The notes under the pieces were generated by a model, which saw only the letters and a list, made by a program, of their open reading frames with translations, had not been told where the DNA came from and did no database searches. From contig CAMNGH010000001.1 in assembly GCA_946538065.1 (NCBI GenBank), positions 1 to 58,923 on the forward strand: 58,923 nucleotides of DNA, read 5' to 3'. The position numbers and the translations under genes are program-made. Source of the stretch: an uncultured Holosporaceae bacterium (GTDB lineage: Bacteria > Pseudomonadota > Alphaproteobacteria > UBA3830). Below are positions 35,116 through 56,194 of this stretch, piece after piece; the first letter of the stretch is position 1; each line of letters opens with the position of its first letter.

Positions 35116-35192
35116 TTCTCTCTCCGATCTTTTGCGAAGAACGTTATTCAAACTTCTTTCTTCTGTAAAGACTAAAAGATAATTTTTTCTCT

Positions 35193-37834: not shown

Positions 37835-38911
37835 TTACTGTTGCGTACCAGGGACACTTTGTTCAGGGCGATTACTCAAAATTTTGTAAAGTTCTGAAAT
37901 CGTACTCATAACGGATGCTCCGCTTTTCATATTTATTTCTAATAATTCTTGAAATGTTTTTTTCCCGATTGCGTTCGCGATTTTTATCAATATAGATGCC
38001 GGACTTTGTGGTTGCTTTTTTTCCAAAAACACTGCTATTTCTCGCAAAGCGTCATATGCTTGCTCTAAAGTCGCCTCATCTTCTTGCGACTGAACTGAAT
38101 TAGTTTTTACATCGTCTGCGGGTTCAGCTTCACTACTTTGAATAACCTCAACTTTAGCCGTTTGTTCTGCAATCTGTTTTTCTTTTTCAGCCAAATTTTG
38201 CGATGTTGTACGTTGGATATCATCAAGGCATTCCAAAATTTCACTAAAGCTTGGCGCATCGTTTCCACATTTCTCCGTCAAAAAAGCATCCAACGCTTTT
38301 ATACTGTCCGTAAGTTTTTTTATGTCTGAATCCAGTTTGCGGAAAAATTCTATGGACGAAGACAAAACGCTCTTACGTATTTGCTTTAGAGATATTCCTT
38401 TCGTATTTTTTATTTGCAAATTATGTCGTGCCATCATCCAGTCTGATAAAGTGTAAACAATCGACGCGCTGTCAGACGGATCCGTTATCGGCAGTAACAC
38501 CATACGCTCTCGCATTTTTTCTATCAGAAAAAAGAACGGAGACAGTCTATAAGTCGTATCTTTATTATTTATCAACGGATAGATATCATTCCAAAACTTT
38601 TTGCACAAAGCCTGCAACAACTCTATTCCGTCATTCAGTCCACTGAATCCTTCTTTAACCGTCCATGCCTCAGTTAACCAAACGGCAATTTGAATATCCT
38701 TAGTTTTATTTTTGAGTAGATCATCACATAATTTGCAAACCTCAGACCAATTGGCTTTCTTCAACTCTGTCTGCCAAATTCCCTGCGACAATTCGCTGTC
38801 ATCTTCCCTTCTGTATTCCTGAATTTGGTCATAGACGTAATCGTAACGCAAATTATCGCCACATGGTTTTTCTTCAGAAATCGGAGATAGATAATCTTCT
38901 ATATTCCGCAT
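37835..38911 (-). CDS. tssA: type VI secretion protein TssA (ImpA_N domain)
   Basis: N-terminal ImpA_N signature ISEEKPCGDNLRYDYVYDQIQEYRRED...W..V...C..LL..KTKDIQIAVWLTEAW. ATG overlaps the tssM stop (TAATG). Confidence 0.88.
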   Translation of the reverse strand: MRNIEDYLSPISEEKPCGDNLRYDYVYDQIQEYRREDDSELSQGIWQTELKKANWSEVCKLCDDLLKNKTKDIQIAVWLTEAWTVKEGFSGLNDGIELLQALCKKFWNDIYPLINNKDTTYRLSPFFFLIEKMRERMVLLPITDPSDSASIVYTLSDWMMARHNLQIKNTKGISLKQIRKSVLSSSIEFFRKLDSDIKKLTDSIKALDAFLTEKCGNDAPSFSEILECLDDIQRTTSQNLAEKEKQIAEQTAKVEVIQSSEAEPADDVKTNSVQSQEDEATLEQAYDALREIAVFLEKKQPQSPASILIKIANAIGKKTFQELLEINMKSGASVMSTISELYKILSNRPEQSVPGTQQ

Positions 38912-41900
38912 TATTCTTCTCCTTTGTTCCCTTCTTCCGGAATCTCTTTTGCCGTTGAAGTTTGCTCATCAAAAGACACATTTACATCAAGAGGCGTTTC
39001 AGCTGTTCCTTCTTCTGATGCTGTCGAGGTGTTGTTAGATTCTTCAGATTCTGTTGTCCCATGCAAGCTCGGACACGTTGTCGGGAAAACCGGCCATGTA
39101 AGTGGCGTCACTTTATCTTCTGCTTTAATTAACGGTGTAATTTTCAAAATCATTTTGGATGTCATTTCGACATTGTTCTTAGATTTATCGTAAATCGGAA
39201 CATTGAACTGCAACAGAACTCCTTCAGGATATTCGATACCCTGATTTAATTTATGTTCTTCTATTAACCTGAATATTGCCCATCTTCCGGCATATGCAAA
39301 TTTCGCCTGCGAACCTTCAATCGTTAAACGTCCCTCGGCTTTTTTTTCATTTGGTTGTTCGTCAGCGGATCCGACCCACTTAAAAATTGCGTTTACTTTA
39401 TTACCGTTAAAGAACGCACTATTTGCTTCATTATTTACTTCGACATCGTCAATTGTTACGCTTCTCTCAACTACTGAAGAAGTTAACGCTTCTAAATCTG
39501 GAGATGGACGCAATTGCACTTTAAATAATACCGCAGCAGAAGCCGCATCTGACCCCTTTGAATGTTTAATCCATGTTTTCAAAAAAGGTAGGATTTTATT
39601 TGCCGAACGAAGGAAGCTTAAAGCATCTTCATTGATGCCTTTCTTCTCGCGATTCTGCTCGAGGGTAGTATCAATACCTTTGCAATTTTGCTCTAACATG
39701 TTCACAAAAGTTTCGATATCCTTTAACGACGCTTCATCCTCTGAACTACCAAATGGGAATTTGTCCTTCAGATTATTATTAAAGAAGCTATTTAAATTAT
39801 TATACGCTTCAGCGGCTTTATCATATTGAATTACATCAACACGCGATAATAATGACTTTGCGACTTGAGAACGTTTCGACATAAAGAAATCGCCGCCAGT
39901 TTCGGAAATATTCTTAATCTCTCCCTGACTATCGAATCCGTCAACAGAAACTTTCGACAAGCTATTTGTCATAAATTCTTCTAACGCAGCAATTGAGTTA
40001 CCTGGTTTCTTCGCTTCGTAATCATCGACATTAGCTATAATTTCTTTCCATTTTGCAACCAAACGCGTAGCTGTCACTTGCTCCGAAATATACGGCATTG
40101 TAAGTAAATCTATAATCGGAGAGGCCAAATCTTTAGCTAAAAATCTGATTCTTTCAAATTGTGACGTTAAATACTCGCGCACACCAGCCTCGTCATCGAT
40201 GTTTAAGAACTTTGGCTTTTGATTTCCGTTCCAATTATCAAAAATCGCATTTCCTGTCGCGTATGGAGTTTCTAAATTAAATAACGCATCAATTTTCTCA
40301 AGCAATGCAGAATAGTGAGATACTATTAACTGTGTAAGCTCGATGTTATGACTGTCTCCATCCTCCTTAATGCTCTCCAAAAACTTCACAATTTTCGGAA
40401 GAATCGTAGAAACATTTCTGATGTTTGTCGCTTGTCTTTTATACGCATCCTCTAACAGTTTGCGAGCATTCCCTAGTGGAGCATCTTCAAATATTTCCGC
40501 ATTACCTAATGACGCCGCGATGGTCGGTAGGAAACACTTTTGTGCTACAATTTTATACATATCGTAGTACTGCGCACGCATATCTGCCGGCATAGTTTCA
40601 GCAAACACATAATACTTATCGATTAATTCAGAAAGTTTTCTCAAACGCTTAATATCCCAGAACAACATTTTGTCATCCAAAACCGTTGTCGTAAATGTTG
40701 CTGAAGGAACTACACAGATAAATTCCTGTTCCAAAAGCGCATGTAACTCCTTCTTTAAATTCTCGGCATCAGCAGATAATGCCTGAATATTTGCCGAAAG
40801 CAAAGGTCCGGTTAAATCCGTTTGAAACGCTCGCAAGCGCATTTTATATTTCTGAAACTCAGTTTCTGCTTGTTTAATAAGAGATGCTGTACATTCCGCG
40901 CTAATAACATCTGACGTTTTCAATGTTTCAATAAGACTATTATATTCTTTTGTCGGAGAAAAATGTTCTTGAGCTATCCAACTGAAATTTTTATTTTGCA
41001 AAATTTCTGAAAGCAACGTCAATTTCTTATATGTTTTCGCTAATTGCGCCTGCGAATATGTGGCAGATGAATTTTTCGCGGCATCAGAAATTTTTTCTAT
41101 ATCCTCAGTAATATTTTGCAATATTTTTTCTATCGTCACATCCAAAGTATCTTTTAAAAACGCTCCGAAAAGATTACGTAAACCATTTTCTATTTTCGGA
41201 CGGAACGCTTCTATATCGAATTTCGGAGGCATGAGTCGCCTGTTCGGCACGTGATTTTTCATTTCCTCCGTAATTTCAAATTTGTCCTTAAATAAAGCCG
41301 TTGTTAAATCTATAACGCTGTTTCTATCTTCAAGATTTCGTATTGAATTATATTCCGAACTGATTTTTTTCAGACTTGCGACTTTGTTGGTAAATTCCCG
41401 CAAATCCTTAAAACTTTTAAAAGACTTAACATCAAACAAATCTTTTTTCCGATTCGGAGATGCTACATCATTATCTATATCGCGCAAAAAATTATTTGTA
41501 TTCAGATTCAAATCGATGTACATCGCTCTTATAACTACGGAATCAAATACCAATCCCAAAGTATTTTTAATATTGCGATGCAAACTCGAAAACCACGATT
41601 GAGGAACAAATATGGACGTAATATCCCAACGCTTAACAATCGGCATATTTTGCAACAATGCAGCAGTGCGCTTGTTTATTGCACTTTGCTCTGCACCGCC
41701 GTTTAGGTCGGACTGCATTTTTCTAACCTGAGATATCGTTGTTTTTATAGAATATAATGTTCTGTAATACTCATGTATTTTATTTTTGATATTATTGTTA
41801 CCGAAAAACCATCCGAGAGAAAAAGTAACGACTGTTCCTGCTAAAATCAATTTATTGCGAAATGATACTTGCCCTACGTCTATTGCGTCCAAACTTATTG

Positions 41901-43140
41901 GATATGCTAGGTTATATTCTTTAAAAATTTTCTCTGTAAATAAATCTTGAACAAAATACAACTCATTATTGTATGCTCCGGAATAGTTCACTGTCGTAAG
42001 CAACTGCGGACTAAGCGCATTTGGTTGCAATAATTCTGCAGACGCTTCTTCGATAGTCTTCTGCTGTCCTGTAAAATATATTCCTCTCAAAATTAATCCT
42101 TCTTCCGGATTATGCGAGTGGAACATTGCATTTAAGTACGCAGTTAATGATTTTTTCGTCTTATTAATTTCGGATTCAAATAAGATAGCTTTTTCTAAAT
42201 CTTCAGAGACTCTTTTTTCTTGTGCAAAATGAATGACTGCCTTTCTAATTCCCTCGTTTATCGTTCTAAAAGCTTCATCTACCCACACCGTAGAAAATGC
42301 AGTATTCAATGAATACGGACACGACCAACCAAACATTTGTTGTTTTGCGGATTCGTGCAACAAATGTGCGAATTCTGAAAATCCGGTAATCAAATCAGAT
42401 TTCGTAACAATCAAATAAATCGGTAGACGGAAATTCACGTCATGCTGAAATTTAAAAATCTTATTAAACATTTCTGTGGCGTGTTTTTCTACCGCAGAGT
42501 CAGACAAAAGCATATCGGCAGGAAGTGTTACAATTATTCCATCCAATGGCCTGCGTGGACGAATAAACATAAACAACTCACTTATAAACGACCAGAACTT
42601 ATGCTCATCTTCCTTTAATTCTGTTTTCGGTAATTCAAAAATTGCGCCTTTTTTAAATAACTTCCACATGGAATCAATAGCCGAACCATCTGCGGTTAAA
42701 TGTTCCAAATTTAAACTATTTAATAGAGTTGTCTTACCACTTTTTTCAGCTCCGACCATCATAAAACACGGTAGCTTATATCTCCAACGAAGGTCATAGG
42801 TACTGTTTTTTATTATCTCCAAAACTTGAAAGAAAATTTTAGTTATCGGACCGGCATGCATAAAACCATACATCGATAAAATTTCACCGAGGCGTCCGGA
42901 TAAAATCGGCAAATCTTCATGCCGAATTTTTTGTATCGGTTTTGATTTTTTCGTATCGTCCTTCGGTGCATCACGACGAACTATCGGTTTCGGTTTTGAG
43001 TTTACATATATTACGCAAATGCCAAAGAATATTATCACAAGTAAAACCGCAACAACCACCATTCCAACAGATACAAACGGAATAAACTGTGATGGAATCA
43101 CCGCTAATTTATCTGATAATAATTCTTTCACCGCATCCAT
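38911..43140 (-). CDS. tssM: type VI secretion membrane subunit TssM (IcmF-like), unusually long
   Basis: N-terminal TM, Walker A (GAEKSGKTTLLNS), an IVTKSDL NTPase motif, a second TM near residue 450 and a ~950-aa C-terminal region. ATG at 43140 (GAGGGAATAATT upstream, 2 nt after the tssL stop) is preferred over the track start at 43212. Confidence 0.88.
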   Translation of the reverse strand: MDAVKELLSDKLAVIPSQFIPFVSVGMVVVAVLLVIIFFGICVIYVNSKPKPIVRRDAPKDDTKKSKPIQKIRHEDLPILSGRLGEILSMYGFMHAGPITKIFFQVLEIIKNSTYDLRWRYKLPCFMMVGAEKSGKTTLLNSLNLEHLTADGSAIDSMWKLFKKGAIFELPKTELKEDEHKFWSFISELFMFIRPRRPLDGIIVTLPADMLLSDSAVEKHATEMFNKIFKFQHDVNFRLPIYLIVTKSDLITGFSEFAHLLHESAKQQMFGWSCPYSLNTAFSTVWVDEAFRTINEGIRKAVIHFAQEKRVSEDLEKAILFESEINKTKKSLTAYLNAMFHSHNPEEGLILRGIYFTGQQKTIEEASAELLQPNALSPQLLTTVNYSGAYNNELYFVQDLFTEKIFKEYNLAYPISLDAIDVGQVSFRNKLILAGTVVTFSLGWFFGNNNIKNKIHEYYRTLYSIKTTISQVRKMQSDLNGGAEQSAINKRTAALLQNMPIVKRWDITSIFVPQSWFSSLHRNIKNTLGLVFDSVVIRAMYIDLNLNTNNFLRDIDNDVASPNRKKDLFDVKSFKSFKDLREFTNKVASLKKISSEYNSIRNLEDRNSVIDLTTALFKDKFEITEEMKNHVPNRRLMPPKFDIEAFRPKIENGLRNLFGAFLKDTLDVTIEKILQNITEDIEKISDAAKNSSATYSQAQLAKTYKKLTLLSEILQNKNFSWIAQEHFSPTKEYNSLIETLKTSDVISAECTASLIKQAETEFQKYKMRLRAFQTDLTGPLLSANIQALSADAENLKKELHALLEQEFICVVPSATFTTTVLDDKMLFWDIKRLRKLSELIDKYYVFAETMPADMRAQYYDMYKIVAQKCFLPTIAASLGNAEIFEDAPLGNARKLLEDAYKRQATNIRNVSTILPKIVKFLESIKEDGDSHNIELTQLIVSHYSALLEKIDALFNLETPYATGNAIFDNWNGNQKPKFLNIDDEAGVREYLTSQFERIRFLAKDLASPIIDLLTMPYISEQVTATRLVAKWKEIIANVDDYEAKKPGNSIAALEEFMTNSLSKVSVDGFDSQGEIKNISETGGDFFMSKRSQVAKSLLSRVDVIQYDKAAEAYNNLNSFFNNNLKDKFPFGSSEDEASLKDIETFVNMLEQNCKGIDTTLEQNREKKGINEDALSFLRSANKILPFLKTWIKHSKGSDAASAAVLFKVQLRPSPDLEALTSSVVERSVTIDDVEVNNEANSAFFNGNKVNAIFKWVGSADEQPNEKKAEGRLTIEGSQAKFAYAGRWAIFRLIEEHKLNQGIEYPEGVLLQFNVPIYDKSKNNVEMTSKMILKITPLIKAEDKVTPLTWPVFPTTCPSLHGTTESEESNNTSTASEEGTAETPLDVNVSFDEQTSTAKEIPEEGNKGEE

Positions 43141-43142
43141 AA

Positions 43143-43880
43143 TTATTCCCTCAACGCAATGAATGAAATTTCCGTTAGCAGATTGTGAATATCTTTCGTT
43201 TCGTACAGCCAAACAATCGAGCTAATAGATAAAAACATAAACACGAAAAACGCGCACATATAATTTATAATCGATGCTTCCGGCAACATTTTGCGATGTA
43301 TTGTCGGAATAGTATGTGTATATTCTTTTTGAAACAATCGATGCCCAACCATTAGCATTGAATTATCTCGCTTTTCTATAAATTCCAGCAACTTATTTCT
43401 ATACGAATTTATCTGTACAGATTCATCATCTGCACCACGATATTTACCTTCAAACCCTAACGCCAACATCTTCAAATAAATCTCAGCTTTATCTGCAGAA
43501 AATTCATCATGCTCCGCTAACAATTTATTTATACGATTAAAAATTTCATCTCCTGCAATTTGTGTATTGAAAAATTTTTGCTCAAGAATATTATCTTCCC
43601 AAAATTGTTTTCCTTCCCATTCCGAATTAAGGAAAATATCATCTGCAAGAGCAACCATGATATACACGACTTCCGAATAATGCGCTATCGTATGCTTTTC
43701 ATTTTCCATAGCAATTTTTATAAATGAACTCATTGAACGATAAATCGCATGAAAATCTACGTTTTCTTTAGTCTCTTTTATATTTTCTTGTGCATTGAAA
43801 ATAGCCACGCAAAAATTACCAAACATTTCGCGCAAAATCTGTGCAAGCTCTGTCGTGTGTTGACGATTAGCAGTCTGCAT
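43143..43880 (-). CDS. tssL: type VI secretion membrane subunit TssL (DotU family)
   Basis: 245 aa with the DotU core (LALGFEGKYRGADDESV) and a single C-terminal TM. No OmpA/PG-binding extension. Confidence 0.88.
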   Translation of the reverse strand: MQTANRQHTTELAQILREMFGNFCVAIFNAQENIKETKENVDFHAIYRSMSSFIKIAMENEKHTIAHYSEVVYIMVALADDIFLNSEWEGKQFWEDNILEQKFFNTQIAGDEIFNRINKLLAEHDEFSADKAEIYLKMLALGFEGKYRGADDESVQINSYRNKLLEFIEKRDNSMLMVGHRLFQKEYTHTIPTIHRKMLPEASIINYMCAFFVFMFLSISSIVWLYETKDIHNLLTEISFIALRE

Positions 43881-45159
43881 ACAATATGACCTCCTCTGGT
43901 GTGAAGTTTACGGAGCTGTTAACTAAACACAATTTTTCCGCAGGTTTTATGTAACTCGGCTGCACTTTCACAGATATAATTGTCATACCATTTGGTTGAG
44001 TTATATATTCTCCTCTTTCGAGAACAACTCTTTCCGCACCTAACACTCTCTTGTCTCTTATCATTGGCATCATAGATTCACTTGCAATTCTCACGCCGTT
44101 AATCCAGTGCAAAATATCGTCATCTGTCAGAATAAATGGTTTTTGAATACCAATAGCGAGGGTACCTTTCTCCAGCCACTCTTTTTTCATTTGCAATTTG
44201 AACGTATCACCATCTTTATCGAAATGAATAATGTCATACTGTTGTTTCAGCCTACCAAGGACATCTTGCATATACTGCAACAGGCCATTAAATGTCTGAA
44301 ACAAATTTTCGTGATCATATATAGTTAACCTTGGAATTAACTGTGTCGGATTAATCGAAACGATAAACGCAATTGCATTCAGCAAATATTTATAGAGTTC
44401 AAAAGGCTGAATATCATTCGTTCTTACAGCAGCTTCCAATGGTAATGCCGCTTGAATTAACAAACGCAAACTCGCCATCGACTCATCTGAGGCTGTGCGA
44501 GAATAATTGTCTTTCCTGTCCGCGAAATACGAAACCTTTCCCCTGATAATTTGCGCTATCTCTCGGCACATTTCCGAAATTTTCGAATGCTCATTTATCG
44601 TAATGTAAGGAGCGATATAATCAGTACTTACAACACCACCATCTATCGATTTCTGTGCCTCAAATATCGGAAAACCTGTGTAGCGTGCGTCAACTTCATT
44701 TTCTAAAAGCAGTTTCAAACGTGGTTTTAAAGTTGATATATTTTTCGGGTTATCCCCTGTATTTTCATCGCATACATTGGATATTTCAGAAGAATAATAA
44801 CGAGCCATATCTCCCGTTAATTGATTTTCTCCCATCTTACGAGCAGGAACGGCGAGATAAATTTTTACAGGTGTACTGCTAACTGTGAAATAGTCACTGA
44901 GATTTCTTTCCAAAGGATTATCATGAAGAGCATCAAAATCGAAAAACAGACCATCCTTAAAAATACCGCGCGCATTTAATACACGAATCACGCCGGAAGA
45001 TAAAGCAGATGTGTCGATTTTTAAATCATAAACACCATATCCAAATGCGGAATGGGCCGAACTGAACTCTCTGAATAAATGCTGCAGATAATTTTCTGAT
45101 TGCTGAAAATGCTGAGGTGAAATCAACATTCCTTCATACCACTGAACACACGCTTCCAT
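43867..45159 (-). CDS. tssK: type VI secretion baseplate subunit TssK
   Basis: N-terminal VQWYEGMLISPQHFQQSENYLQ is the TssK signature; ~430 aa. ATG at 45159 chosen; the track start at 45174 is TTG. A 14-nt overlap with tssL supports an operon. Confidence 0.88.
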   Translation of the reverse strand: MEACVQWYEGMLISPQHFQQSENYLQHLFREFSSAHSAFGYGVYDLKIDTSALSSGVIRVLNARGIFKDGLFFDFDALHDNPLERNLSDYFTVSSTPVKIYLAVPARKMGENQLTGDMARYYSSEISNVCDENTGDNPKNISTLKPRLKLLLENEVDARYTGFPIFEAQKSIDGGVVSTDYIAPYITINEHSKISEMCREIAQIIRGKVSYFADRKDNYSRTASDESMASLRLLIQAALPLEAAVRTNDIQPFELYKYLLNAIAFIVSINPTQLIPRLTIYDHENLFQTFNGLLQYMQDVLGRLKQQYDIIHFDKDGDTFKLQMKKEWLEKGTLAIGIQKPFILTDDDILHWINGVRIASESMMPMIRDKRVLGAERVVLERGEYITQPNGMTIISVKVQPSYIKPAEKLCLVNSSVNFTPEEVILYADC

Positions 45160-45262
45160 TTCAACACCACACAACTACTTATCTTCAGGATACGCGTCAA
45201 ATGGTTAACGATTTATTTACATTTTCGAAAAATCTCAAAAAATCGTAAATTTTTTTGGAGCT

Positions 45263-45982: not shown

Positions 45983-45983
45983 T

Positions 45984-46448: not shown

Positions 46449-46453
46449 CTATA

Positions 46454-46819
46454 TTACTCGGCTGGAGTCTCAGCAGCTGCAGCAGCGGCTTCTTGCTGTG
46501 CCTGCAATCTCTCTTGAGCTTTCTTCTTCGGAGCGGATTTTTTAGGAGTTTCCGTAATCGCCGGCTTCTCGCACAATCCCATTTTACTTAACAAGATAGC
46601 AACTCTGTCTGACGGTTTCGCGCCAACAGAAAACCAATATTTTACTCTATCTTCTTTTACGGTGACGCGCGACGCATCATCATGATCTAAAAACGGATTA
46701 TAAGTTCCGACTTTTTCAATAAAAGATCCGTCTCTTGCATTTCTGGAATCTGTTACGACCATTCTGTAGTACGGGTGCTTTTTCGCTCCTCCGCGAGCTA
46801 AACGAATTTTTAAAGCCAC
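46454..46819 (-). CDS. rpsP: 30S ribosomal protein S16 (with Ala/Lys-rich C-terminal extension)
   Basis: (V)ALKIRLARGGAKKHPYYRMVV. GTG at 46819 with GGAG 6 nt upstream is preferred over the TTG at 46837. Confidence 0.93.
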   Translation of the reverse strand: MALKIRLARGGAKKHPYYRMVVTDSRNARDGSFIEKVGTYNPFLDHDDASRVTVKEDRVKYWFSVGAKPSDRVAILLSKMGLCEKPAITETPKKSAPKKKAQERLQAQQEAAAAAAETPAE

Positions 46820-46952
46820 AAATATCTCCACATTCAATATGGAATAACTTTTAACAACTATAGCATTAAAAGTCCAGTAGCAGACAGAAAAAATTATATT
46901 TCTGCATAAATCCGTTCTTTATAGAAAGACAATTAAATTTGAGAAAACGAAA

Positions 46953-49310: not shown

Positions 49311-49388
49311 GAATTAATACGCCCTACTTCTAACATAAAATTTACAATTTGGACAGAATATTTTTTGAACTTTTTCAACATTAAACTG

Positions 49389-49418
49389 TTGGTATAAAAA
49401 ATTGTAGTCTGTTATAAT
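49389..49418 (+). promoter_or_regulatory. predicted sigma70-type promoter for SRP RNA (and possibly dnaX)
   Basis: TTGGTA (49389-49394), 18 nt, TATAAT (49413-49418). The predicted start falls ~7-9 nt downstream, at the 5' end of the SRP RNA helix. Confidence 0.5.
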
Positions 49419-49426
49419 CAACCTTT

Positions 49427-49510
49427 GGAGTCGTCAGACGTACAGGATTGCAAACCCGGTCAGGTTCGGAAGAAAGCAGCCGTAGCAACACCGAGCGGGT
49501 TGGCGCCTCC
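49427..49510 (+). ncRNA. ffs: signal recognition particle RNA (4.5S, small bacterial type)
   Basis: Contains CCCGGTCAGGTTCGGAAGAAAGCAGCCGTAGCAA, matching the conserved domain IV of 4.5S RNA (E. coli CCAGGUCAGGUCCGGAAGGAAGCAGCCAAGGCAG). The termini GGAGTCGTC / GGCGCCTCC pair. It occupies the classical position upstream of dnaX. Exact ends are +/- ~10 nt. Confidence 0.8.
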
Positions 49511-49531
49511 TGTTAAGTCGGAAAGAGCAGC

Positions 49532-50791
49532 ATGTGTGTTTATATTCCTTTAGCCAGAAAATACAGACCTCAGAGATTTGCTGATGTAGTCGGGCAAGAT
49601 GTCGCCGTAAAAATTATTACGCGAGGAATGCAAAAAAACAGATTAGGTGCGGCGATGTTATTCTCCGGCACCCGAGGTATTGGAAAAACGACAATTGCAA
49701 GAATTCTGGCAAAAGCCTTTAGGTGTGAAAATTTCGACGGAACAACTGCAGAGCCATGTTGCAAATGCGCATCGTGCTTAAGTTTCGCACACGATAATCA
49801 AATCGACGTTATTGAAATCGATGCGGCAAGCAATACAGGCGTTGATGATGTAAGAGAAATAATAGAATCCTGTCGATATAAACCGACCACAGGGAAATTC
49901 AAAATATTCATTATTGATGAAGTCCATATGCTCTCAAAAAGTGCTTTTAACGCACTTTTAAAAACGTTGGAAGAACCGCCAGAACACGTAAAATTCCTAA
50001 TGGCAACAACGGAAACATATAAAATTCCGGAGACAATTTTGTCTCGCGTTTTAAAGTTTGATTTGAAGCCGGTTGACGCAGGATTGATTACACAATACCT
50101 GTCTTCAGTCTGTAATCGTGAAAACATTTCTGCAGGAGCGGAAGCCCTTTCGTTAATTGCAAAAGCCGCTAACGGTTCTATTCGCGACAGTTTATCAATT
50201 TTAGACCAAGCAATAAACATGTCAGACAACAACACCATAACGGTCGATGACGTAAAAGCTATGCTGTGTTTGTCTGACGATACAGATATTATTGAACTAT
50301 TAAGATTAATTCTCTCTAACGATGTAAAATCCGCTGTTTCAAAATATCGTGAAATCATCAAGGATGATATTTCGAGCACAAGCATAGCGAATTTGCTGTT
50401 AGATTATGTCCATGTTATGACATGCATTAAGACAGGAGTTGCTCCGCTCGAAAACATATATTCAGAAGCGACTATATCAAAACTAAAAGAAATGTCGGGA
50501 AAAGTTTCTCTGCCGGCCCTATCCAAAATTTGGCAAATGCTTATTAAAGGATTAAATGAGCTAAGCATGTGTGAACATCCCGAAATAGCCCTCGAAATGA
50601 TAATTATCAGGATTGTTTACTCATCCGGATTACCGGATTTGTACGAGTTGATACAAAGTTGCGGAAAATCGACAACTTCTGTTGCAAAATCTAAAGAAAT
50701 GCACGATATAAAAAATAGTACGACAAATAATACTGAGACATCTTTAGCCGACTCAGCTATGAGAATGTTTCCAAACGCAAAATTACAATAG
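49532..50791 (+). CDS. dnaX: DNA polymerase III subunit gamma/tau (short, gamma-sized)
   Basis: LARKYRPQRFADVVGQ, Walker A (GTRGIGKTT), a zinc module (CCKCASC), Walker B (FIIDEVHML) and SRV sensor. Only 419 aa. Confidence 0.93.
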   Translation: MCVYIPLARKYRPQRFADVVGQDVAVKIITRGMQKNRLGAAMLFSGTRGIGKTTIARILAKAFRCENFDGTTAEPCCKCASCLSFAHDNQIDVIEIDAASNTGVDDVREIIESCRYKPTTGKFKIFIIDEVHMLSKSAFNALLKTLEEPPEHVKFLMATTETYKIPETILSRVLKFDLKPVDAGLITQYLSSVCNRENISAGAEALSLIAKAANGSIRDSLSILDQAINMSDNNTITVDDVKAMLCLSDDTDIIELLRLILSNDVKSAVSKYREIIKDDISSTSIANLLLDYVHVMTCIKTGVAPLENIYSEATISKLKEMSGKVSLPALSKIWQMLIKGLNELSMCEHPEIALEMIIIRIVYSSGLPDLYELIQSCGKSTTSVAKSKEMHDIKNSTTNNTETSLADSAMRMFPNAKLQ

Positions 50792-50800
50792 GAGGAAAAG

Positions 50801-51112
50801 ATGAATAATAATTTTAATCAATTAATGAAACAAGCTCAGGAAATGCAAGCAAAACTGATGGCAGCTCAAAACAAAATGAATGAGTTGGAAGTTTCCGGCA
50901 CATCAGGTGGTGGCATGGTAACTGTCGTCATCAGCGGTAAAGGAGATATGAAAAAACTCACCATCGATCCGAAATTGTTGTCTCCTGATGACGCAGAAAT
51001 GGTAGAGGATTTGATTGTCGCAGCATTTAACGACGCAAAATCGAAACTCGAAGCAAAAATTTCAGAACAAATGGGAGGTATTCTGCCGGCAGGTATGAAA
51101 TTACCATTTTAG
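50801..51112 (+). CDS. ybaB: nucleoid-associated protein YbaB/EbfC
   Basis: 103 aa with the LMKQAQEMQAKLMAAQNKM...VSGTSGGGMVTVVISGKGD pattern. Strong GGAGG RBS, directly downstream of dnaX. Confidence 0.93.
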   Translation: MNNNFNQLMKQAQEMQAKLMAAQNKMNELEVSGTSGGGMVTVVISGKGDMKKLTIDPKLLSPDDAEMVEDLIVAAFNDAKSKLEAKISEQMGGILPAGMKLPF

Positions 51113-52242
51113 AACTTGGGATCGTAGCCTATTAGCATAGTCCCCGTCCTTTCATCGATAGAGGCAGGTCCACCGCACGTCGCTATTCCGTTATCTTTTT
51201 TGACTAACCGCAGTGTAGCGTCCTTTCCATCGGATTCTAATCGTTTTTTTAAATTAGCCGCATTCACGTTATGCTGTTGACGCCAGGCATTGAAAAGACA
51301 TTGCGTAACCATTAAATTTATAGAATAACGCGTGCTCAGTTTCTTTAAATTTTTCGCAACAGAAGGCATTAGATCGTATCCTCCTTTTATTAATAAAGAG
51401 ATAGTCACTATTTTTTCTCTATTATTTTCCAAAAACACGTTAAACGCTTTTATATTTTGTTCTTCAAGTATTATGAAAATTTCTGCTTCATCTTTGAGTA
51501 CAAGCGATGCAAGAATCAAATTAGTCACATATACAGGCTCATCCTCACAATTTAAATATATCTTGTTTGCAGACTCAAGTAACGCTAGCATCTCACCATA
51601 GCTAATCGAATTAATTTTATGTAAAACGACCTTACCTTTGCGAAATTTTATCTCAACAGAATTTCTTTGTTCTCCTTGAAAAAAGACTCGATCTGAACAA
51701 ATACCCGATCCCCTCGATCTAGTTAACGGCAATTCCACATCTTTGTCTTCACAAGACGACGCTCTCTGTCCGAAAACATTATCCTCTTTCGATCTTTCTC
51801 TAAATTTTTTCTCCCACATAGTTTGACTCGACATCCCTGGTGCCCAGGCTCTTACGGTTTCATAGATTCTGGAATCCAAATCCCTTTTCTCCAGACAAAT
51901 TTTAGCTAGCATCTTCTCTTTGAAATTATTATCATTTTCTAATTTTTCACTAAATCCTTTAAATACTTTCTCAGTTTGACTCGACATCCGTCCCCCTAGT
52001 GCCCATGTTCTCACGGGTTCATAGATTCTGGAATCCAAATCCCTTTTCTCAGACATTTCCTTAATTTGACGCGACATCTCTGGATATATAGATGTCAATT
52101 TCCTCGATGAGCGCTTCTCATCTGGTTCTGGTACCGTTGCACTATCTTTCGGTACTCCCATTCCTTCAACTGCTCCACAGATAAGGACTGTCGCAAACGT
52201 CATCATAAATAGATACTTATTGGTTTTCATTTTTTGCTCCAT
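51109..52242 (-). CDS. secreted repeat protein, unknown function (possible LRR-like C-terminal half)
   Basis: 377 aa with a signal peptide (YLFMMTFATVLICGAVEG). Carries a tandem ~53-aa repeat (EKRDLDSRIYEPVRTWA...MSSQT / EKRDLDSRIYETVRAWAPGMSSQT). The convergent stop overlaps the ybaB stop. Confidence 0.6.
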   Translation of the reverse strand: MEQKMKTNKYLFMMTFATVLICGAVEGMGVPKDSATVPEPDEKRSSRKLTSIYPEMSRQIKEMSEKRDLDSRIYEPVRTWALGGRMSSQTEKVFKGFSEKLENDNNFKEKMLAKICLEKRDLDSRIYETVRAWAPGMSSQTMWEKKFRERSKEDNVFGQRASSCEDKDVELPLTRSRGSGICSDRVFFQGEQRNSVEIKFRKGKVVLHKINSISYGEMLALLESANKIYLNCEDEPVYVTNLILASLVLKDEAEIFIILEEQNIKAFNVFLENNREKIVTISLLIKGGYDLMPSVAKNLKKLSTRYSINLMVTQCLFNAWRQQHNVNAANLKKRLESDGKDATLRLVKKDNGIATCGGPASIDERTGTMLIGYDPKF

Positions 52243-52809: not shown

Positions 52810-52812
52810 AAA

Positions 52813-52832
52813 CTGCCGGGCTTAACCGGCAG
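52813..52832. terminator. bidirectional rho-independent terminator candidate between ppiC-type gene and hcp
   Basis: CTGCCGG-gcttaa-CCGGCAG is a 7-bp GC-rich stem, flanked by AGAAA on one side and CTTTCAGCTTTT on the other. It lies between two convergent stops. Confidence 0.5.
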
Positions 52833-52835
52833 CTT

Positions 52836-53399
52836 TCAGCTTTTGCCTTCTACCTTTAACTTACTGAAGTCGAATTTCATTCCGACTTGTCCGGTTTTTG
52901 TACCTTTAGCGTCGTATTTTATCTTTAAATCTTCAACGGCACTGTAGCCAAACGAAAATATTATGTGATCTCCTGATTGACGATAAAACTTTATCAAACA
53001 GTTTTCATAAGTCAGTTCTTGTGCCGTAACTTGCTTGCCGTGATTGCTTATCAATCTGTGTATATTAATCTCGTCTAAAACTTTTCCGGCGAGCATACCT
53101 TCTTGCAATAGTGGTCCCCATGAACCGTACTTCATGCAAACTATAACATCTTCACCAACAACTTTTCCGTCTCCGGTATGTTCACCTGAAGCATCGTGAG
53201 TTGCGTGTCTTTCAGAACCTGTATCAATCCACAGACACGGAGCCCCGTCTTTTTCCGAACCATCGATATCACTACTGAAAATATCATCGCACTTTATGAG
53301 AAATTGCGGAGTATGACTACCTTTCTTCTTAGCCTCCTCCTCCATCTTCTCTACTTTTTGATCAACACCTCTTATCCTTGCTTCAAAATCTGCATTCAT
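52836..53399 (-). CDS. hcp: divergent Hcp (TssD) tube protein, paralogue 2
   Basis: Collinear by eye with Hcp1-type proteins (FLIKCDDIF.S...CLWIDTG; GKVVGEDVIVCMKYGSWGPLLQEGMLAGK; IIFSFGYSAVEDLKIKY). ATG at 53399 is preceded by AAAGGAGGGAATT; the track start at 53417 is TTG. Confidence 0.72.
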   Translation of the reverse strand: MNADFEARIRGVDQKVEKMEEEAKKKGSHTPQFLIKCDDIFSSDIDGSEKDGAPCLWIDTGSERHATHDASGEHTGDGKVVGEDVIVCMKYGSWGPLLQEGMLAGKVLDEINIHRLISNHGKQVTAQELTYENCLIKFYRQSGDHIIFSFGYSAVEDLKIKYDAKGTKTGQVGMKFDFSKLKVEGKS

Positions 53400-53489
53400 A
53401 ATTCCCTCCTTTTTCAAGTAAGGCGTATTACCTTTTCCAAGCTAATACGCAACAATACTACAAAAACAACACTGTATAGCTTTATCTCA

Positions 53490-54056
53490 CTACTTCAATT
53501 CAACCTTTAAAGATGAACTGTCAAATGCAACAGCTGTATTTCCTATCTTTGTGCCATCTGTACCGTAAGCCGTATTCGTATCCACTACCTTTACAAAGTT
53601 AAATGCAAAAGTAATAACGTCTCCATCCTGGACATACTGTTCTATTTTGCAGACGGTATAATCTATTTGTTGAATTATCACTTTCGTTCCTTCAATACAG
53701 GAGAAACGAATTAAGCTCAAAGCCTTTACGTTTTTACCTTCATACATATATTGCTGAATCAGCGGAGCCCATGAACCATATTTCATACTTACGATAACAG
53801 TTCTGGAAGTAATTCTTCCATCTCCGGTTAACTCACCCCCGGCATCATAAGTCGTTTTCCTAGATGCTCCGACCTTTACCCACAAGCATGGCGTAGAATC
53901 TCCATCAAATCCTTCTACATCACTGTCGAAAAAATCTTCACACTTTATCATCCACTGTGGCAGAACAGACGATACCACAACCTCGTTTAAGCTGCCACTT
54001 TCATCTCTCAGATCCACTGATTGTGAACCGAAATCTTTCCAACTTTTAACAGCCAT
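53490..54056 (-). CDS. hcp: divergent Hcp (TssD) tube protein, paralogue 1
   Basis: 188 aa. WMIKCEDFFDSDVEG...CLWVKVG, GRITSRTVIVSMKYGSWAPLIQQYMYEGKNV and VITFAFNFVKVVDTNTAY align with the Hcp blocks MFIKI.dvKGES / v.dlsftKy.DkstP.L..a...Gk / v.l.f..v.v.Y. Directly downstream of the sheath gene. Confidence 0.75.
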   Translation of the reverse strand: MAVKSWKDFGSQSVDLRDESGSLNEVVVSSVLPQWMIKCEDFFDSDVEGFDGDSTPCLWVKVGASRKTTYDAGGELTGDGRITSRTVIVSMKYGSWAPLIQQYMYEGKNVKALSLIRFSCIEGTKVIIQQIDYTVCKIEQYVQDGDVITFAFNFVKVVDTNTAYGTDGTKIGNTAVAFDSSSLKVELK

Positions 54057-54109: not shown

Positions 54110-56194
54110 CTAACCGGCTGCCGGTGGTGGCAATGTAGCCACAAGCCTAATAGATGCCGTAAGTTCCTCTAACTGGAAATGAGGTCTCAAGAAAATAGTC
54201 GCTTTATAAGACCCAGGTTTACCCGGAATATCAAATACGTCTATTCTCGCCTCTCTTAACGGATATCTCGCTTTCAATTCCTGGTTTGCCGCATCATTCA
54301 ACAAAACGTAACTTGCAATCCAGTTATTCAAATACAAAGCAACATTATCTCGAGTCAGGAACGAGCCTACTTTATCTCGCATAATTGCTTTTATGTAATG
54401 AGCGAACCTCGAAGCCGCCAACAGATACGGAAGTCTTGCGCTGAGTGCAGCATTAGCATTTGCCTCATCCGTATTGTAAACTTTTGGTTTCTGAGTGGTT
54501 TGACCTCCGAAGAATGCAGCAAAATCCGTTCCTTTACTATGGCATATTGCTAAGAATCCCATATTGCTCAATTCTTTCTCTCGCCTGTCGGTAATTGCTA
54601 TCTCTGTCGGACACTTCAATGCAATATCTCCATCGGTGGTCTTAAATGTATAAGCAGGCAGACCTTCAACCAGTCCTCCACCTTCAACACCACGAATAGC
54701 AGCAGGCCATTTATATAACGAAACAGCATGTCCAATTCTCTCTCCCATCACGAAAGCTGCATTTCCCCAACAGAACTGAGAGTTATCTGCGCCGTCAATA
54801 GATTCGACATAATTCAATCCGTCAACCGGCAATGTATCAGGTCCATAAGGAAGTCTCATTAAAACTCTCGGAAGGACAAGTGCGACATATCTTGAATCCT
54901 CGCTGTCTCTGAAAGACCGCCACTTTATCATTTCTGTGCTCTCGAATATCTTTGAAATATCTCTTGGTTCAGCGAGATGTGCAAAGCTATCCATATCGAA
55001 CATTTTTGGATGCGCTGCCGCAATAAACGGAGCATGAGCCGCCGCTGCGACATTCGAAATCTTCTCCAACAGCAAAATATCCTGCGGATGACGAGTAAAT
55101 TCGTATCCACCGATTAAGCATGAGTACGGATGACCGCCGAAAGTGCCATATTCTTCTTCGTATACTTTCTTAAACAACTGGCTTTGGTCGAATTCAACCG
55201 CATGCTCCAAGTCATCCAAAAGCTCTTTCTTGGTTACGTTCATCACTCTTATCTTTAATTGAGTGCTGGTTTCCGTATTCATAACCAAGTAGTAAAGTGC
55301 TCTCCAAGTCCCCTCTAATTCCTGAAACGCTTTGTTATGAAGAATTTCATTAATCTGCGTGCTCAATATAACATCGATATCCGCAATTGCTTTTTCAACA
55401 AATACTAACGGGTTCTTTACGCTGGTAATTTTTGCTTCTTCAATTTTAAATAACAGTTCAATTAAGATATTACAGGCGTTGACTTCTGCTTCAGGATCAC
55501 GCGCCATTTTACCTTCATTAAACATTTCCTTCAGGATTTCTCTAGTTGGTTTTGAAGCATCTGCCGCCGGAGCTGCCGCACCATCTGCCGGTTTTGCAGC
55601 ATCCGCTGGTTTTGCAGGCGCATCTTTTGCCTGAGAAGAATCTGTCTGCTCTGTCGTCGTAGCGAAATCAGCAGTAACTGTCTGCTTATTTGCCTTCAAA
55701 ACCGCATCTATCTGAAGCTTCAGCGCTGCTCTCAAATCCGCATCAGAGACTATTTCTTTAACCAAATTCTGGAGAGGATCATTACCCTCAAGCTTCACGA
55801 CCAAATCATTCAGTCGAACTCTCGAAGAATAAATCTTATTAAGTTTCGGGACTTGCTTTGCAATACTCACAGGACCGAAATCATCGATATGCTTAAAGAA
55901 GAGTTCCGCGTTAAGATCTTCCGCCCCATCACCCAATGTATCTTTTACCTGTATAGCCAATCTTGGATTAATCGACATCATAAATTCAGGTAGATTATCT
56001 CTGTCCACTTCAACGAATTTCCTCATCTTTATCGGAGGTAACTCATCTGCCGGCATACCTGACAAATCCGCCAAAACTCCCAAAACAAACGGAAGTTCTT
56101 TCATAACAATAGCATTTCCGATTTCTACGTCATACGTAATTTGCACTCGTGGCGGACGTACTCTATCTAATACATGCTGTGTACTTTCAACCAT
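54110..56194 (-). CDS. fused type VI secretion sheath protein TssB-TssC (VipA-VipB in one polypeptide)
   Basis: Residues 1-~165 are TssB-like ([34 protein letters not shown]). Residues ~165-215 form a low-complexity linker ([28 protein letters not shown]). Residues ~215-694 are TssC-like ([21 protein letters not shown]...[16 protein letters not shown]...[22 protein letters not shown]). The 694-codon ORF is uninterrupted. Confidence 0.85.

What the first reader, a model, noticed from the sequence alone, without database searches (positions are those of the whole stretch)
54110..56194. TssB and TssC sheath subunits fused into a single 694-aa polypeptide
One uninterrupted ORF begins with a complete TssB/VipA-like module (about residues 1-165, [34 protein letters not shown]). 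It then runs through a ~50-aa Ala/Pro/Lys/Asp-rich linker ([28 protein letters not shown]). The linker DNA at ~55555-55625 is locally GC-rich and built from imperfect ~15-nt repeats. The ORF continues into a full-length TssC/VipB-like module ending in the canonical ...[21 protein letters not shown]. In the T6SSs I know (subtypes i, ii, iii) the small and large sheath subunits are separate proteins that form the protomer by a beta-strand handshake. A covalent fusion would fix 1:1 stoichiometry. It would also bury the TssC N-terminal helix, which ClpV uses in Vibrio-type systems to recognise contracted sheaths. This raises the question of how, or whether, this sheath is recycled; no clpV is in the window. 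I am not aware of a described natural TssBC fusion, but I cannot search to confirm.
Basis: partly seen in the sequence, partly recalled or inferred. Interest (0 to 1): 0.8.

Follow-up and report, generated by a model that had tools for sequence, protein, structure and literature searches.

The report
Fused TssB–TssC type VI sheath gene
This gene really does encode the two sheath proteins of a bacterial type VI secretion "spring" as one chain joined by a floppy linker, but the arrangement turns out to be common in protist-symbiont bacteria and some other lineages and was already noted once in 2013, so it is a neat but modest finding.

Summary
Window 54110-56194 (minus strand) is one uninterrupted 694-aa ORF. 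It has a full-length TssB match (aa 6-163), a roughly 50-aa Ala/Pro/Lys/Asp-rich, GC-rich, weakly repetitive linker, and a full-length TssC match (aa 219-689). It is not an assembly error. All 120 closest database clusters are fused; the single apparent exception is a scaffold gap inside the linker. Both modules are under strong purifying selection (dN/dS 0.02-0.05). The linker varies from 0 to 84 aa among 78 fused homologues and is predicted to be disordered. DNA-level checks found true fusions in 14 of 80 species-representative genomes: Holosporales/Caedibacter-type Alphaproteobacteria and a marine gammaproteobacterial clade. There is also an independent recent fusion in Pseudomonas aeruginosa PA99, where the old ribosome-binding site and tssC start codon now lie inside the linker and clpV sits in the same cluster. 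The claim that the fusion would bury the ClpV-docking helix is not supported, because that helix is retained next to a flexible tether. Natural fusions were mentioned in one sentence by Lossi et al. 2013 but have apparently never been characterised. Verdict: a real, functional single-chain sheath, a new member of a known kind, of moderate-to-low interest.

The parts
54110..56194 (-). tssBC: single 694-aa ORF encoding the fused T6SS sheath protomer
   Evidence: ORF list; Pfam and NCBIfam matches; closest solved structure 9n4v has separate TssB and TssC chains that align to aa 1-153 and 213-693.
55700..56194 (-). TssB (small sheath subunit) module, aa 1-165
   Evidence: TIGR03358 at aa 6-163; AlphaFold pLDDT 81-94 for aa 40-170 with a C-terminal helix at 152-168; dN/dS 0.045 against the closest relative.
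55550..55699 (-). Linker, aa ~166-215: the first ~15 aa ([15 protein letters not shown]) are conserved in close relatives; the rest is a hypervariable Ala/Pro/Lys/Asp-rich tether
   Evidence: pLDDT 23-34 with essentially no secondary structure (two 3-residue strands in run 2). Among 78 fused homologues the core is 0-84 aa long, the majority residue occupies only 0.13 of sequences per column, and 8.5% of residues are bulky hydrophobics against 35.8% in the modules. GC content is 52-59%.
55558..55617 (-). Weak tandem repeats inside the linker (18-nt and 12-nt periods)
   Evidence: Tandem Repeats Finder. The 92%-identical relative P0001 carries an extra copy of the [17 protein letters not shown] unit (alignment A1).
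54110..55549 (-). TssC (large sheath subunit) module, aa 216-694, plus the stop codon
   Evidence: TIGR03355 at aa 219-689; PF05943 plus PF18945; dN/dS 0.016; Foldseek ranks 1-9 are all T6SS TssC chains.
55520..55537 (-). ILKEMF (aa 220-225): positional equivalent of the ClpV-docking consensus LLDEIM of VipB
   Evidence: Aligns to LLDRII in 9n4v_A; predicted helix at 220-226; motif survey of the clade; consensus as cited in PMC5924787.
53490..54056 (-). hcp-like gene 1 (188 aa), immediately downstream of tssBC
   Evidence: 45% identical to hcp-like gene 2; only a faint match to a solved Hcp (9qpe, E = 0.47); the same gene order occurs in relative L084.
52836..53417 (-). hcp-like gene 2 (193 aa)
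   Evidence: Pfam T6SS_HCP 23.8 bits against a cut-off of 23.5; PDB 4w64 Hcp1 at E = 0.0012.
52810..52835 (-). Terminator-like hairpin that would close a tssBC-hcp-hcp transcription unit
   Evidence: Consensus scan: 10-bp stem with 6 G-C pairs and a T-rich tail. This is a pattern match only.
43867..45174 (-). tssK (second T6SS locus in the window)
   Evidence: PF05936 at 7e-49.
43143..43880 (-). tssL (DotU family)
   Evidence: PF09850 at 7e-28.
38911..43212 (-). tssM (1433 aa)
   Evidence: IcmF-related_N at 1.7e-44 and a weak IcmF_C match.
37835..38911 (-). tssA
   Evidence: ImpA_N at 2e-36.

Best explanation
The gene encodes a functional single-chain sheath protomer of a proteobacterial (subtype-i-like) type VI secretion system in a Holosporales-type alphaproteobacterial endosymbiont. 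A complete TssB and a complete TssC are joined, in the same N-to-C order as in single-chain phage sheaths, by a disordered low-complexity tether. The tether connects the C-terminal helix of TssB to the N-terminal helices of TssC. In solved sheaths these elements pack together as the surface-exposed 'domain 3'. The tether should therefore loop out on the outside of the sheath without disturbing the beta-strand handshake, which uses the TssB N-terminus and the TssC C-terminus. The fusion probably arose by loss of the stop codon between adjacent tssB and tssC, which turned the intergenic spacer into linker. The linker then drifted in length by repeat slippage. The likely benefit is obligatory 1:1 co-expression and co-folding of two subunits that form an obligate heterodimer, with interdigitated beta-strands, in solved sheaths, in a reduced genome whose T6SS genes are scattered. 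Shown here: the single ORF, the completeness of both modules, purifying selection, clade-wide conservation, linker variability and predicted disorder, and the origin mechanism in the PA99 case. Inferred: that the protein stays uncleaved, the assembly geometry, and the selective benefit.
For: One ORF with full-length TssB and TssC matches. The closest solved sheath, A. vinelandii 9n4v, aligns as TssB to aa 1-153 and TssC to aa 213-693, and the handshake termini are conserved. 119 of the 120 closest database clusters are fused, and the exception (P0103) is a 10-N scaffold gap in the linker. dN/dS is 0.045 for TssB, 0.016 for TssC and 0.093 for the linker against a 92%-identical relative that shows the same priA-tssBC-hcp-hcp order. 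The linker is 0-84 aa long, poorly conserved, depleted in hydrophobic residues, and unstructured in two AlphaFold runs. Natural fusions with near-zero linkers exist (P0108, P0117, L059), so the two ends must lie close together in the fold. Published structures place the TssB C-terminal helix and the TssC N-terminal helices together in outer-layer domain 3 (PMC5807055). TssB corresponds to the N-terminal part and TssC to the C-terminal part of phage gp18 (PMC5924787). Origin mechanism: in PA99, indels bypass the old TGA, and the old GGAGA ribosome-binding site and tssC ATG are now read in frame. In 40 of 66 split loci, tssB and tssC are separated by a single in-frame stop codon. T6SS context: hcp-like genes lie downstream, and tssK-L-M-A lies at a second locus, as published for this bacterial group.
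Against: There is no protein-level evidence that the 77-kDa product stays intact. The AlphaFold models are only moderate (mean pLDDT 61-69, pTM 0.56-0.60) and are monomeric, so assembly geometry is inferred from published structures of split sheaths. Whether this T6SS is active is unknown. tssE/F/G, vgrG and any clpV lie outside the window. Split relatives nested in or near the fused clade (L013, L014/15, L080 and Ca. Bodocaedibacter) show that the fusion is dispensable, so the proposed benefit may be small or absent, meaning the fusion could be neutral.
Confidence: 0.8

Rival explanations
1. The fusion is an artefact: a missed stop or frameshift in a repetitive, GC-rich stretch, or a decaying pseudogene.
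For: The linker is repetitive and GC-rich. It does cause assembly trouble elsewhere: a scaffold gap in L085 produces a spurious split.
Against: The same uninterrupted ORF occurs in more than 100 independent assemblies from NCBI, JGI, ENA and Logan. It was verified at the DNA level in L004, L005, L008, L009, L020, L022, L030, L059 and L084. dN/dS of 0.02-0.05 shows strong constraint. Errors would tend to split the gene, not fuse it consistently.
Confidence: 0.02
2. The gene is translated as one chain, but the working sheath is still a TssB/TssC heterodimer. Either the exposed Ala/Pro/Lys-rich linker is cut by a protease, or TssC is also made separately from an internal start.
For: The linker is long, disordered and exposed, so it is a plausible protease substrate. 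In PA99 the ancestral ribosome-binding site and tssC ATG persist inside the linker, so free TssC could still be made there. In the window, in-frame ATGs at aa 224 and 231 (KEMFNEGKM) are preceded by purine-rich sequence.
Against: Fusions with almost no linker (P0108, P0117, L059) leave no room for cleavage yet are conserved. The window's linker contains no Met or vestigial start. The first in-frame ATG (aa 224, M of KEMF) lies inside the docking helix and the second (aa 231) just downstream of it; their position may reflect protein-level constraint. Internal initiation would leave TssB permanently fused anyway.
Confidence: 0.1
3. The linker is an adaptive functional element rather than a passive tether. 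It could be a surface 'brush' or docking site that changes how the contracted sheath is recognised and recycled, for example ClpB-dependent or single-shot use in a ClpV-less system, or it could tune assembly.
For: The docking motif has diverged to ILKEMF/ILKEIF/ILQKIF in the clade, whereas the ClpV-associated PA99 fusion keeps LLDEII. No clpV was found in the window or within 10 kb of 14 fused loci in the old clade. The T6SS gene list of the complete Ca. Bodocaedibacter genome has no ClpV. Francisella shows that ClpB can replace ClpV (PMC5924787). The linker's dN/dS of 0.09 is not neutral, although dS is near saturation.
Against: Linker length ranges from 0 to 84 aa with almost no sequence conservation, which argues against a specific binding function. 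Split relatives exist within the same clade. T6SS genes are scattered in these genomes, so absence of clpV near the gene says little. PA99 shows that a fusion is compatible with a clpV-containing cluster.
Confidence: 0.15

Closest known systems
Canonical T6SS-i TssB/TssC (VipA/VipB) heterodimeric sheath; the closest solved example is the Azotobacter vinelandii extended sheath-tube complex (PDB 9n4v)
   Same: Both modules are full length and collinear. 65% identity over the 403 columns Foldseek aligned to 9n4v_A. The handshake termini and the domain-3 helices are retained. The gene is linked to hcp and tssK/L/M/A.
   Different: It is one polypeptide instead of two, with a ~50-aa disordered insert between the TssB C-terminus and the TssC N-terminus. 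The ClpV-docking consensus has diverged (ILKEMF against LLDEIM).
Natural DUF770+DUF877 fusion proteins noted by Lossi et al. 2013 (e.g. the 622-aa protein of gamma proteobacterium HdN1; PMC3597794)
   Same: The same domain combination occurs in one chain, and that paper uses it as an argument that tssB and tssC fused or split during evolution.
   Different: That mention is a single sentence with no analysis. The present protein belongs to an alphaproteobacterial endosymbiont clade and has a longer, hypervariable linker. The HdN1 sequence itself was not examined here.
Fused TssBC of the Pseudomonas aeruginosa PA99-type accessory T6SS cluster (P0120, 683 aa, CP042967.1)
   Same: It has the same B-linker-C architecture, 58% identity over the full length, and a disordered-looking Ala/Pro/Ser/Glu-rich linker.
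   Different: It has an independent and recent origin, nested with 100% bootstrap among split Pseudomonas homologues. The linker is the former intergenic region with the ribosome-binding site and ATG still visible. It keeps LLDEII and has clpV in the same compact cluster. Published H4-T6SS work treats TssB4 and TssC4 as separate.
Single-chain sheaths of contractile phages, R-pyocins, eCIS and T6SS-iv (gp18-like)
   Same: One polypeptide supplies both the N-terminal and C-terminal handshake strands. TssB corresponds to the N-terminal part and TssC to the C-terminal part of gp18 (PMC5924787).
   Different: There is no sequence membership: only T6SS families match. The T6SS-specific domain-3 helices are retained, whereas pyocin sheaths lack domain 3 (PMC5807055). 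This is a secondary re-fusion within T6SS-i, not an ancestral single-chain form.
Scattered T6SS of Holosporales endosymbionts (Ca. Bodocaedibacter vickermanii; Midha et al. 2021, PMC8163844)
   Same: The locus layout [tssB-tssC-hcp] and [tssK-tssL-tssM-tssA] among housekeeping genes is identical, with a divergent Hcp and no ClpV listed.
   Different: In Ca. Bodocaedibacter, tssB (513 nt) and tssC (1455 nt) are separate genes. Here they are one gene.
Francisella IglA/IglB sheath (T6SS-ii)
   Same: It is a T6SS of an intracellular bacterium with no dedicated ClpV; ClpB disassembles the sheath. This is a possible functional analogy.
   Different: IglA and IglB are separate and only distantly related (E = 2e-69 and 2e-6). 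Use of ClpB by the present system is pure conjecture.

Membership tests
T6SS contractile sheath small subunit TssB (TIGR03358 / PF05591) | Full-length profile match above the curated cut-off | tested here: met
   TIGR03358 156.9 bits (cut-off 97.25), aa 6-163, model positions 1-158 of 160. PF05591 157.3 bits.
T6SS contractile sheath large subunit TssC (TIGR03355 / PF05943 + PF18945) | Full-length profile match above the curated cut-off, including the C-terminal gpW/gp25-like domain | tested here: met
   TIGR03355 670.4 bits (cut-off 271.5), aa 219-689, model positions 3-473 of 473. PF05943 434 bits and PF18945 147 bits.
Canonical T6SS-i sheath | TssB and TssC are two separate polypeptides that form a heterodimer | tested here: not met
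   A single uninterrupted ORF covers both modules. The same holds in 119 of 120 close relatives.
Canonical T6SS-i sheath | Conserved N-terminal TssB strand and C-terminal TssC strand used for the inter-protomer handshake | tested here: met
   This was tested at sequence level only. RVQITYDVE and [18 protein letters not shown] are invariant or nearly invariant in 78 homologues, and the TssC C-terminal strand aligns to 9n4v_A. The strand geometry itself was not testable.
Canonical T6SS-i sheath | Genomic association with hcp and other core T6SS genes | tested here: met
   Two hcp-like genes lie downstream, and tssK, tssL, tssM and tssA lie 9-18 kb away in the same window.
ClpV-recycled sheath (Vibrio type) | N-terminal TssC helix carrying the LLDEIM-like ClpV-docking consensus | tested here: inconclusive
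   The helix is present and conserved in the clade (predicted helix 220-226), but it reads ILKEMF, with Asp replaced by Lys. The consensus is taken from PMC5924787.
ClpV-recycled sheath (Vibrio type) | A T6SS-type clpV/tssH gene in the genome | not testable with these tools
   None is in the 58.9-kb window, but T6SS genes are scattered in this lineage and the rest of the genome is not available.
Natural TssB-TssC fusion proteins (Lossi et al. 2013) | DUF770/VipA and DUF877/VipB domains in one polypeptide, in B-to-C order | tested here: met
   The order is B to C in all 239 two-module proteins examined. Prior mention.
Single-chain phage / pyocin / eCIS sheath (gp18-like) | Membership of phage-sheath sequence families, with no T6SS-specific domain 3 | tested here: not met
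   Only T6SS families hit in Pfam. The significant Foldseek hits are all T6SS chains, and a phage sheath appears only at E = 1.3. The domain-3 helices are retained.
Holosporales-type scattered T6SS (Midha et al. 2021) | [tssB-tssC-hcp] and [tssK-tssL-tssM-tssA] at separate loci among housekeeping genes | tested here: met
   Window layout compared with the published description. The nearest named relatives are Holosporaceae MAGs.

The most novel reading that the evidence does not exclude
The old fused clade (Holosporales-type endosymbionts plus a marine gammaproteobacterial group) represents a ClpV-independent T6SS variant. In it, the single-chain sheath, with its diverged docking helix and a variable surface tether, is recycled by another route such as ClpB, or is not recycled at all. 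The related short fused forms that lack domain 3 altogether would then be a further step towards a pyocin-like, single-shot sheath inside the T6SS-i lineage.
Probability: 0.15. Interest if true: 0.6.

Novelty: new member of a known kind. Interest (0 to 1): 0.33.

Why it matters
[quoted passage not shown] This window documents that a covalently fused, single-chain version is the norm in a whole clade of protist endosymbionts and has arisen at least twice. That has three practical uses. (1) Annotation: NCBI names these proteins only 'sheath large subunit', so automated T6SS detectors may score tssB as missing in such genomes. (2) Engineering: nature has already tested linkers from 0 to more than 80 residues between TssB and TssC, which is useful for designing single-chain or tagged sheaths. 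(3) Recycling: comparing fused sheaths that have ClpV (P. aeruginosa PA99) with those where ClpV may be absent (the endosymbionts) gives a concrete way to ask how contracted sheaths are recognised for recycling. None of this overturns current models.

Tried and rejected
(1) Eight of the ten literature searches looked for a described natural fusion or for the T6SS/ClpV of this bacterial group. They found nothing explicit. Exact phrases such as 'TssB-TssC fusion' gave 0 papers, until a looser query led to the single sentence in Lossi et al. 2013. The P. aeruginosa H4-T6SS papers never mention a fusion. (2) P0103, the only apparent TssC-only close relative, looked like a secondary split. I rejected that: a run of 10 N in the linker shifts the frame. 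(3) L051 (Tundrisphaera) was flagged as fused by my first ORF script. I rejected that as an off-frame ORF in a high-GC genome; blastp shows separate 193-aa and 502-aa genes. (4) 60 of 66 split loci have tssB and tssC in the same frame. I do not read this as enrichment, because the locus tool ranks by best tblastn segment, and a segment can run through an in-frame stop. It only shows that a one-mutation route to fusion is widely available. (5) I looked for a junction Trp as a sign of code-4 read-through artefacts among metagenomic representatives. The test was confounded by the conserved WRGL motif, so the counts (120 of 149 with both modules) are treated as upper bounds. P0166 clearly looks like several merged genes. 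(6) I searched for clpV next to fused genes. This was uninformative because T6SS genes are scattered in these genomes. (7) The Kudryashev 2015 structure paper was not held, so I used Salih et al. 2018 instead. (8) The AlphaFold models stayed at moderate confidence even with 78 sequences. I used them only for local order and disorder, not for geometry.
Full report
OBSERVATION. The window carries a single uninterrupted ORF at 54110..56194 on the minus strand (694 aa, ATG start). Pfam places T6SS_VipA at aa 10-161, VipB at 268-568 and VipB_2 at 577-688. The NCBIfam equivalog models place a full-length TssB (TIGR03358, aa 6-163) and a full-length TssC (TIGR03355, aa 219-689, model positions 3-473 of 473), both far above their curated cut-offs. 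Between them lies [50 protein letters not shown] (aa 166-215, nt 55550-55699). This stretch has 52% GC (58.6% in its core) against 41-42% in the modules. It contains weak tandem repeats of 18-nt and 12-nt period.

IS IT REAL? A search of 5.8 billion proteins returned 120 listed clusters at 58-92% identity. Of these, 119 carry all three Pfam domains in one protein of 586-762 aa, from NCBI, JGI, ENA and Logan assemblies, and many are named Holosporaceae or Alphaproteobacteria MAGs. The one exception, P0103 (471 aa, TssC only), is an artefact. Its contig has a run of 10 N inside the linker, and another frame reads straight through (...[26 protein letters not shown]...). The closest relative, P0001 (92% identity), shows the same gene order: priA, tssBC, then two hcp-like genes. 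Against it, dN/dS is 0.045 for TssB, 0.016 for TssC and 0.093 for the linker (dS is 0.9-1.5, close to saturation). A sequencing error or a pseudogene is excluded for practical purposes.

HOW WIDESPREAD, AND HOW MANY ORIGINS? I scanned one genome per GTDB species and then checked each of the 80 returned loci at the DNA level. 14 have a true single-ORF fusion. Eight are alphaproteobacterial: Holosporaceae, Holosporales, two Caedibacter sp. MAGs, a rumen MAG labelled only 'uncultured proteobacterium' (RUG14145, L008; it groups with the alpha clade in the TssC tree), and three other unclassified alpha MAGs. Six are Gammaproteobacteria: Algicola, Thalassomonas, Woeseiaceae, Psychrosphaera, Kangiella and Arenicella. 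The other 66 are split. A neighbour-joining tree of the TssC module with 100 bootstraps gives three results. The gammaproteobacterial fusions form one clade (100% support). This clade is sister (74%) to an alphaproteobacterial clade (90%) that is mostly fused. That alpha clade also includes split members: L080 at its base, and L013 and L014/15 inside it, although the deep nodes are poorly resolved. A published relative, Ca. Bodocaedibacter vickermanii, also has separate tssB (513 nt) and tssC (1455 nt) genes. So either an old fusion was followed by a few fissions, or several fusions occurred; the tree does not decide between these.

Independently, Pseudomonas aeruginosa PA99 (CP042967.1) and other P. 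aeruginosa assemblies encode a 683-aa fused protein. It is nested with 100% support among split homologues from P. citrulli, P. crudilactis and other Pseudomonas. So there are at least two origins.

An exhaustive HMMER search of 1.84 billion cluster representatives found both modules, always in B-to-C order, in 120 of the top 149 new hits, with linkers up to about 250 aa. These proteins cannot be checked at the DNA level, and some are clearly merged gene calls; P0166, for example, contains two TssBC copies, a kinase and TssK. I treat those numbers as upper bounds.

HOW FUSIONS ARISE. I aligned the PA99 junction with its split relatives. Small indels upstream put the ancestral tssB TGA out of frame. 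Translation then runs through the former intergenic spacer, where the old Shine-Dalgarno GGAGA is read as Gly-Glu, and into the old tssC ATG (...PGEAAMPKSS...). Among the split loci, 40 of 66 have tssB and tssC separated by exactly one in-frame stop codon, with the next in-frame ATG 0-63 nt downstream. Because of the way loci were ranked, this is not evidence of enrichment. It does show that a single mutation would be enough to create a fusion in many lineages. In the window itself no vestigial start survives, and the linker looks like a product of repeat slippage: P0001 carries an extra [17 protein letters not shown] unit.

STRUCTURE AND MECHANISM. The closest solved sheath is the extended Azotobacter vinelandii sheath-tube complex (9n4v). 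Its separate TssB chain aligns to aa 1-153 and its TssC chain (residues 12-492) aligns to aa 213-693. Foldseek ranks 1-9 are all T6SS TssC chains and ranks 10-15 are TssB chains. Two AlphaFold runs (15 and 78 sequences; mean pLDDT 61 and 69) agree locally. TssB is confident (pLDDT 81-94) and ends in a helix at 152-168. Residues 172-216 are unstructured (block-mean pLDDT 28-32, rising to ~46-53 at the edges). The TssC N-terminal helices at 220-226, 234-254 and 262-285 are confident again (85-94). Among 78 fused homologues the linker core is 0-84 aa long. The majority residue is shared by only 13% of sequences per column, against 71-84% in the modules. The linker has 8.5% bulky hydrophobic residues against 35.8% in the modules.

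Published structures show that the TssB C-terminal helix and the TssC N-terminal helices form the tri-helical 'domain 3' in the outer sheath layer (Salih et al. 2018, PMC5807055). They also show that TssB corresponds to the N-terminal part and TssC to the C-terminal part of phage gp18 (PMC5924787). Natural fusions with almost no linker exist (P0108, P0117, L059). Taken together, the two joined ends must lie close to each other on the sheath surface. A tether there should leave the inner handshake untouched, since the handshake uses the TssB N-terminus and the TssC C-terminus, and both are conserved. I therefore infer a single-chain protomer that assembles like the canonical heterodimer, with a floppy loop on the outside. 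That the product remains uncleaved, and that 1:1 co-expression is the selective advantage, are inferences.

THE ClpV QUESTION. The helix is retained directly after the flexible linker, and it aligns to residues 13-60 of 9n4v_A. In PA99 the fused protein keeps LLDEII, close to the LLDEIM consensus of VipB residues 19-24 (PMC5924787), and clpV lies in the same compact cluster. A fusion as such is therefore compatible with a ClpV-containing system. In the window's clade, however, the equivalent position reads ILKEMF, ILKEIF or ILQKIF, with Asp replaced by Lys or Gln. No clpV is in the window or within 10 kb of the other fused loci of the old clade. The T6SS gene list of the complete Ca. Bodocaedibacter genome contains no ClpV. 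Because T6SS genes in these genomes are dispersed over four or more loci, absence near the gene proves nothing. Whether this lineage recycles its sheath with ClpV, with ClpB as Francisella does, or not at all remains open.

CONTEXT. The window is otherwise housekeeping: bamA, rseP, ftsZ/A, murC/G, gatA/B, dnaX, prfB-like, rpsP, rimM, trmD and priA. It holds two of the T6SS loci described for Holosporales families: [tssBC-hcp-hcp], closed by a terminator-like hairpin, and [tssK-tssL-tssM-tssA].

PRIOR KNOWLEDGE AND NOVELTY. Exact-phrase searches for a natural TssB-TssC fusion found nothing. The classic comparative study (Boyer 2009), a 2023 T6SS review, the Holosporales review and the H4-T6SS papers do not mention one. 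Lossi et al. [quoted passage not shown] The architecture is thus known in principle and visible in domain databases, but to my knowledge it has not been characterised. This gene is a new member of that known kind. The new information here is fourfold. The fusion is the rule in a large endosymbiont clade. It arose at least twice. The linker is a hypervariable disordered tether. One origin event can be read directly from the DNA.

VERDICT. Interest is about 0.33.

Noticed in passing
window 52836-54056 (-): Two tandem, 45%-identical Hcp-like paralogues (188 and 193 aa) follow tssBC. They are so divergent that only one barely passes the Pfam Hcp threshold (23.8 against 23.5 bits; PDB 4w64 at E = 0.0012). 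This may explain why a recent review says Holosporales T6SSs appear to lack genes for some main components, which it lists, with the TssD/TssJ labels apparently swapped, as the outer-membrane-complex protein and the inner tube.
   Followed up: partly
L001 9947-12052 (P. aeruginosa PA99, CP042967.1); also L002, L003: Some P. aeruginosa strains carry an accessory T6SS cluster (tssA, tssM, tssL, tssK, then tssBC, hcp, tssE, tssF, tssG, clpV) whose sheath genes are fused. The former ribosome-binding site and tssC ATG are still readable inside the linker. Published H4-T6SS papers describe TssB4 and TssC4 as separate, so this variant seems unreported.
   Followed up: partly
Proteins P0141, P0203, P0205, P0209, P0218, P0232, P0246, P0248: Short fused TssBC representatives (about 530-585 aa) join TssB at roughly residue 120 directly to TssC at roughly residue 265. 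They therefore appear to lack the whole surface 'domain 3', including the ClpV-docking helix, and resemble two-domain pyocin sheaths. No DNA or genomic context is available for them.
   Followed up: no
Proteins P0182, P0166, P0129, P0231: Very long 'fused' representatives exist. Examples are a WD40 propeller plus TssB plus TssC (1644 aa), and two TssBC copies plus TPR, a Ser/Thr kinase and TssK in one 2151-aa product. Others have 300-450-aa N-terminal extensions of unknown nature. At least some are probably merged gene calls.
   Followed up: partly
L085 5288-7416: A scaffold gap (10 N) inside the repetitive linker makes a fused gene look like a 235-aa ORF plus a 471-aa TssC. NCBI also names the fused proteins only 'sheath large subunit'. 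Both effects hide the fusion and could make tssB appear absent in automated T6SS calls.
   Followed up: yes
L006-L083 (66 split loci): In 60 of 66 split loci, tssB and tssC are in the same reading frame, and in 40 they are separated by exactly one stop codon. The sample is biased by tblastn ranking, so an unbiased count is needed before reading anything into it, such as readthrough or fusion-proneness.
   Followed up: partly
window 37835-45174 (-) and 45263-51000: The second T6SS locus (tssK-tssL-tssM-tssA; TssM is 1433 aa and its ORF overlaps the end of tssL by about 70 nt) is separated from tssBC by trmD, rimM, rpsP, a release factor, an MFS transporter and dnaX. The scattered layout matches that published for Holosporales families.
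   Followed up: yes
L088 12131-14242: In one fused relative (P0098), a 703-aa protein with an adenylate/guanylate cyclase domain lies immediately downstream of tssBC, in the position where hcp normally sits.
   Followed up: no
window 51109-52242 (-), 27909-29855 (-), 27403-27909 (-), 33955-34698 (-), 34774-35151 (-): Several sizeable ORFs (377, 648, 168, 247 and 125 aa) have no Pfam match at the thresholds used. Given the T6SS context and endosymbiont origin, they could be lineage-specific effectors or accessory proteins.
   Followed up: no
window 19898-21031 (-): There is an HMG-CoA synthase-like ORF, which suggests a mevalonate pathway, among cell-division and murein genes in what looks like a reduced alphaproteobacterial genome.
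   Followed up: no
window 1-58923: GC skew is strongly and uniformly negative on the plus strand, and almost every gene is on the minus strand. The only local reversal, at about 49-51 kb, coincides with dnaX on the plus strand.
   Followed up: no
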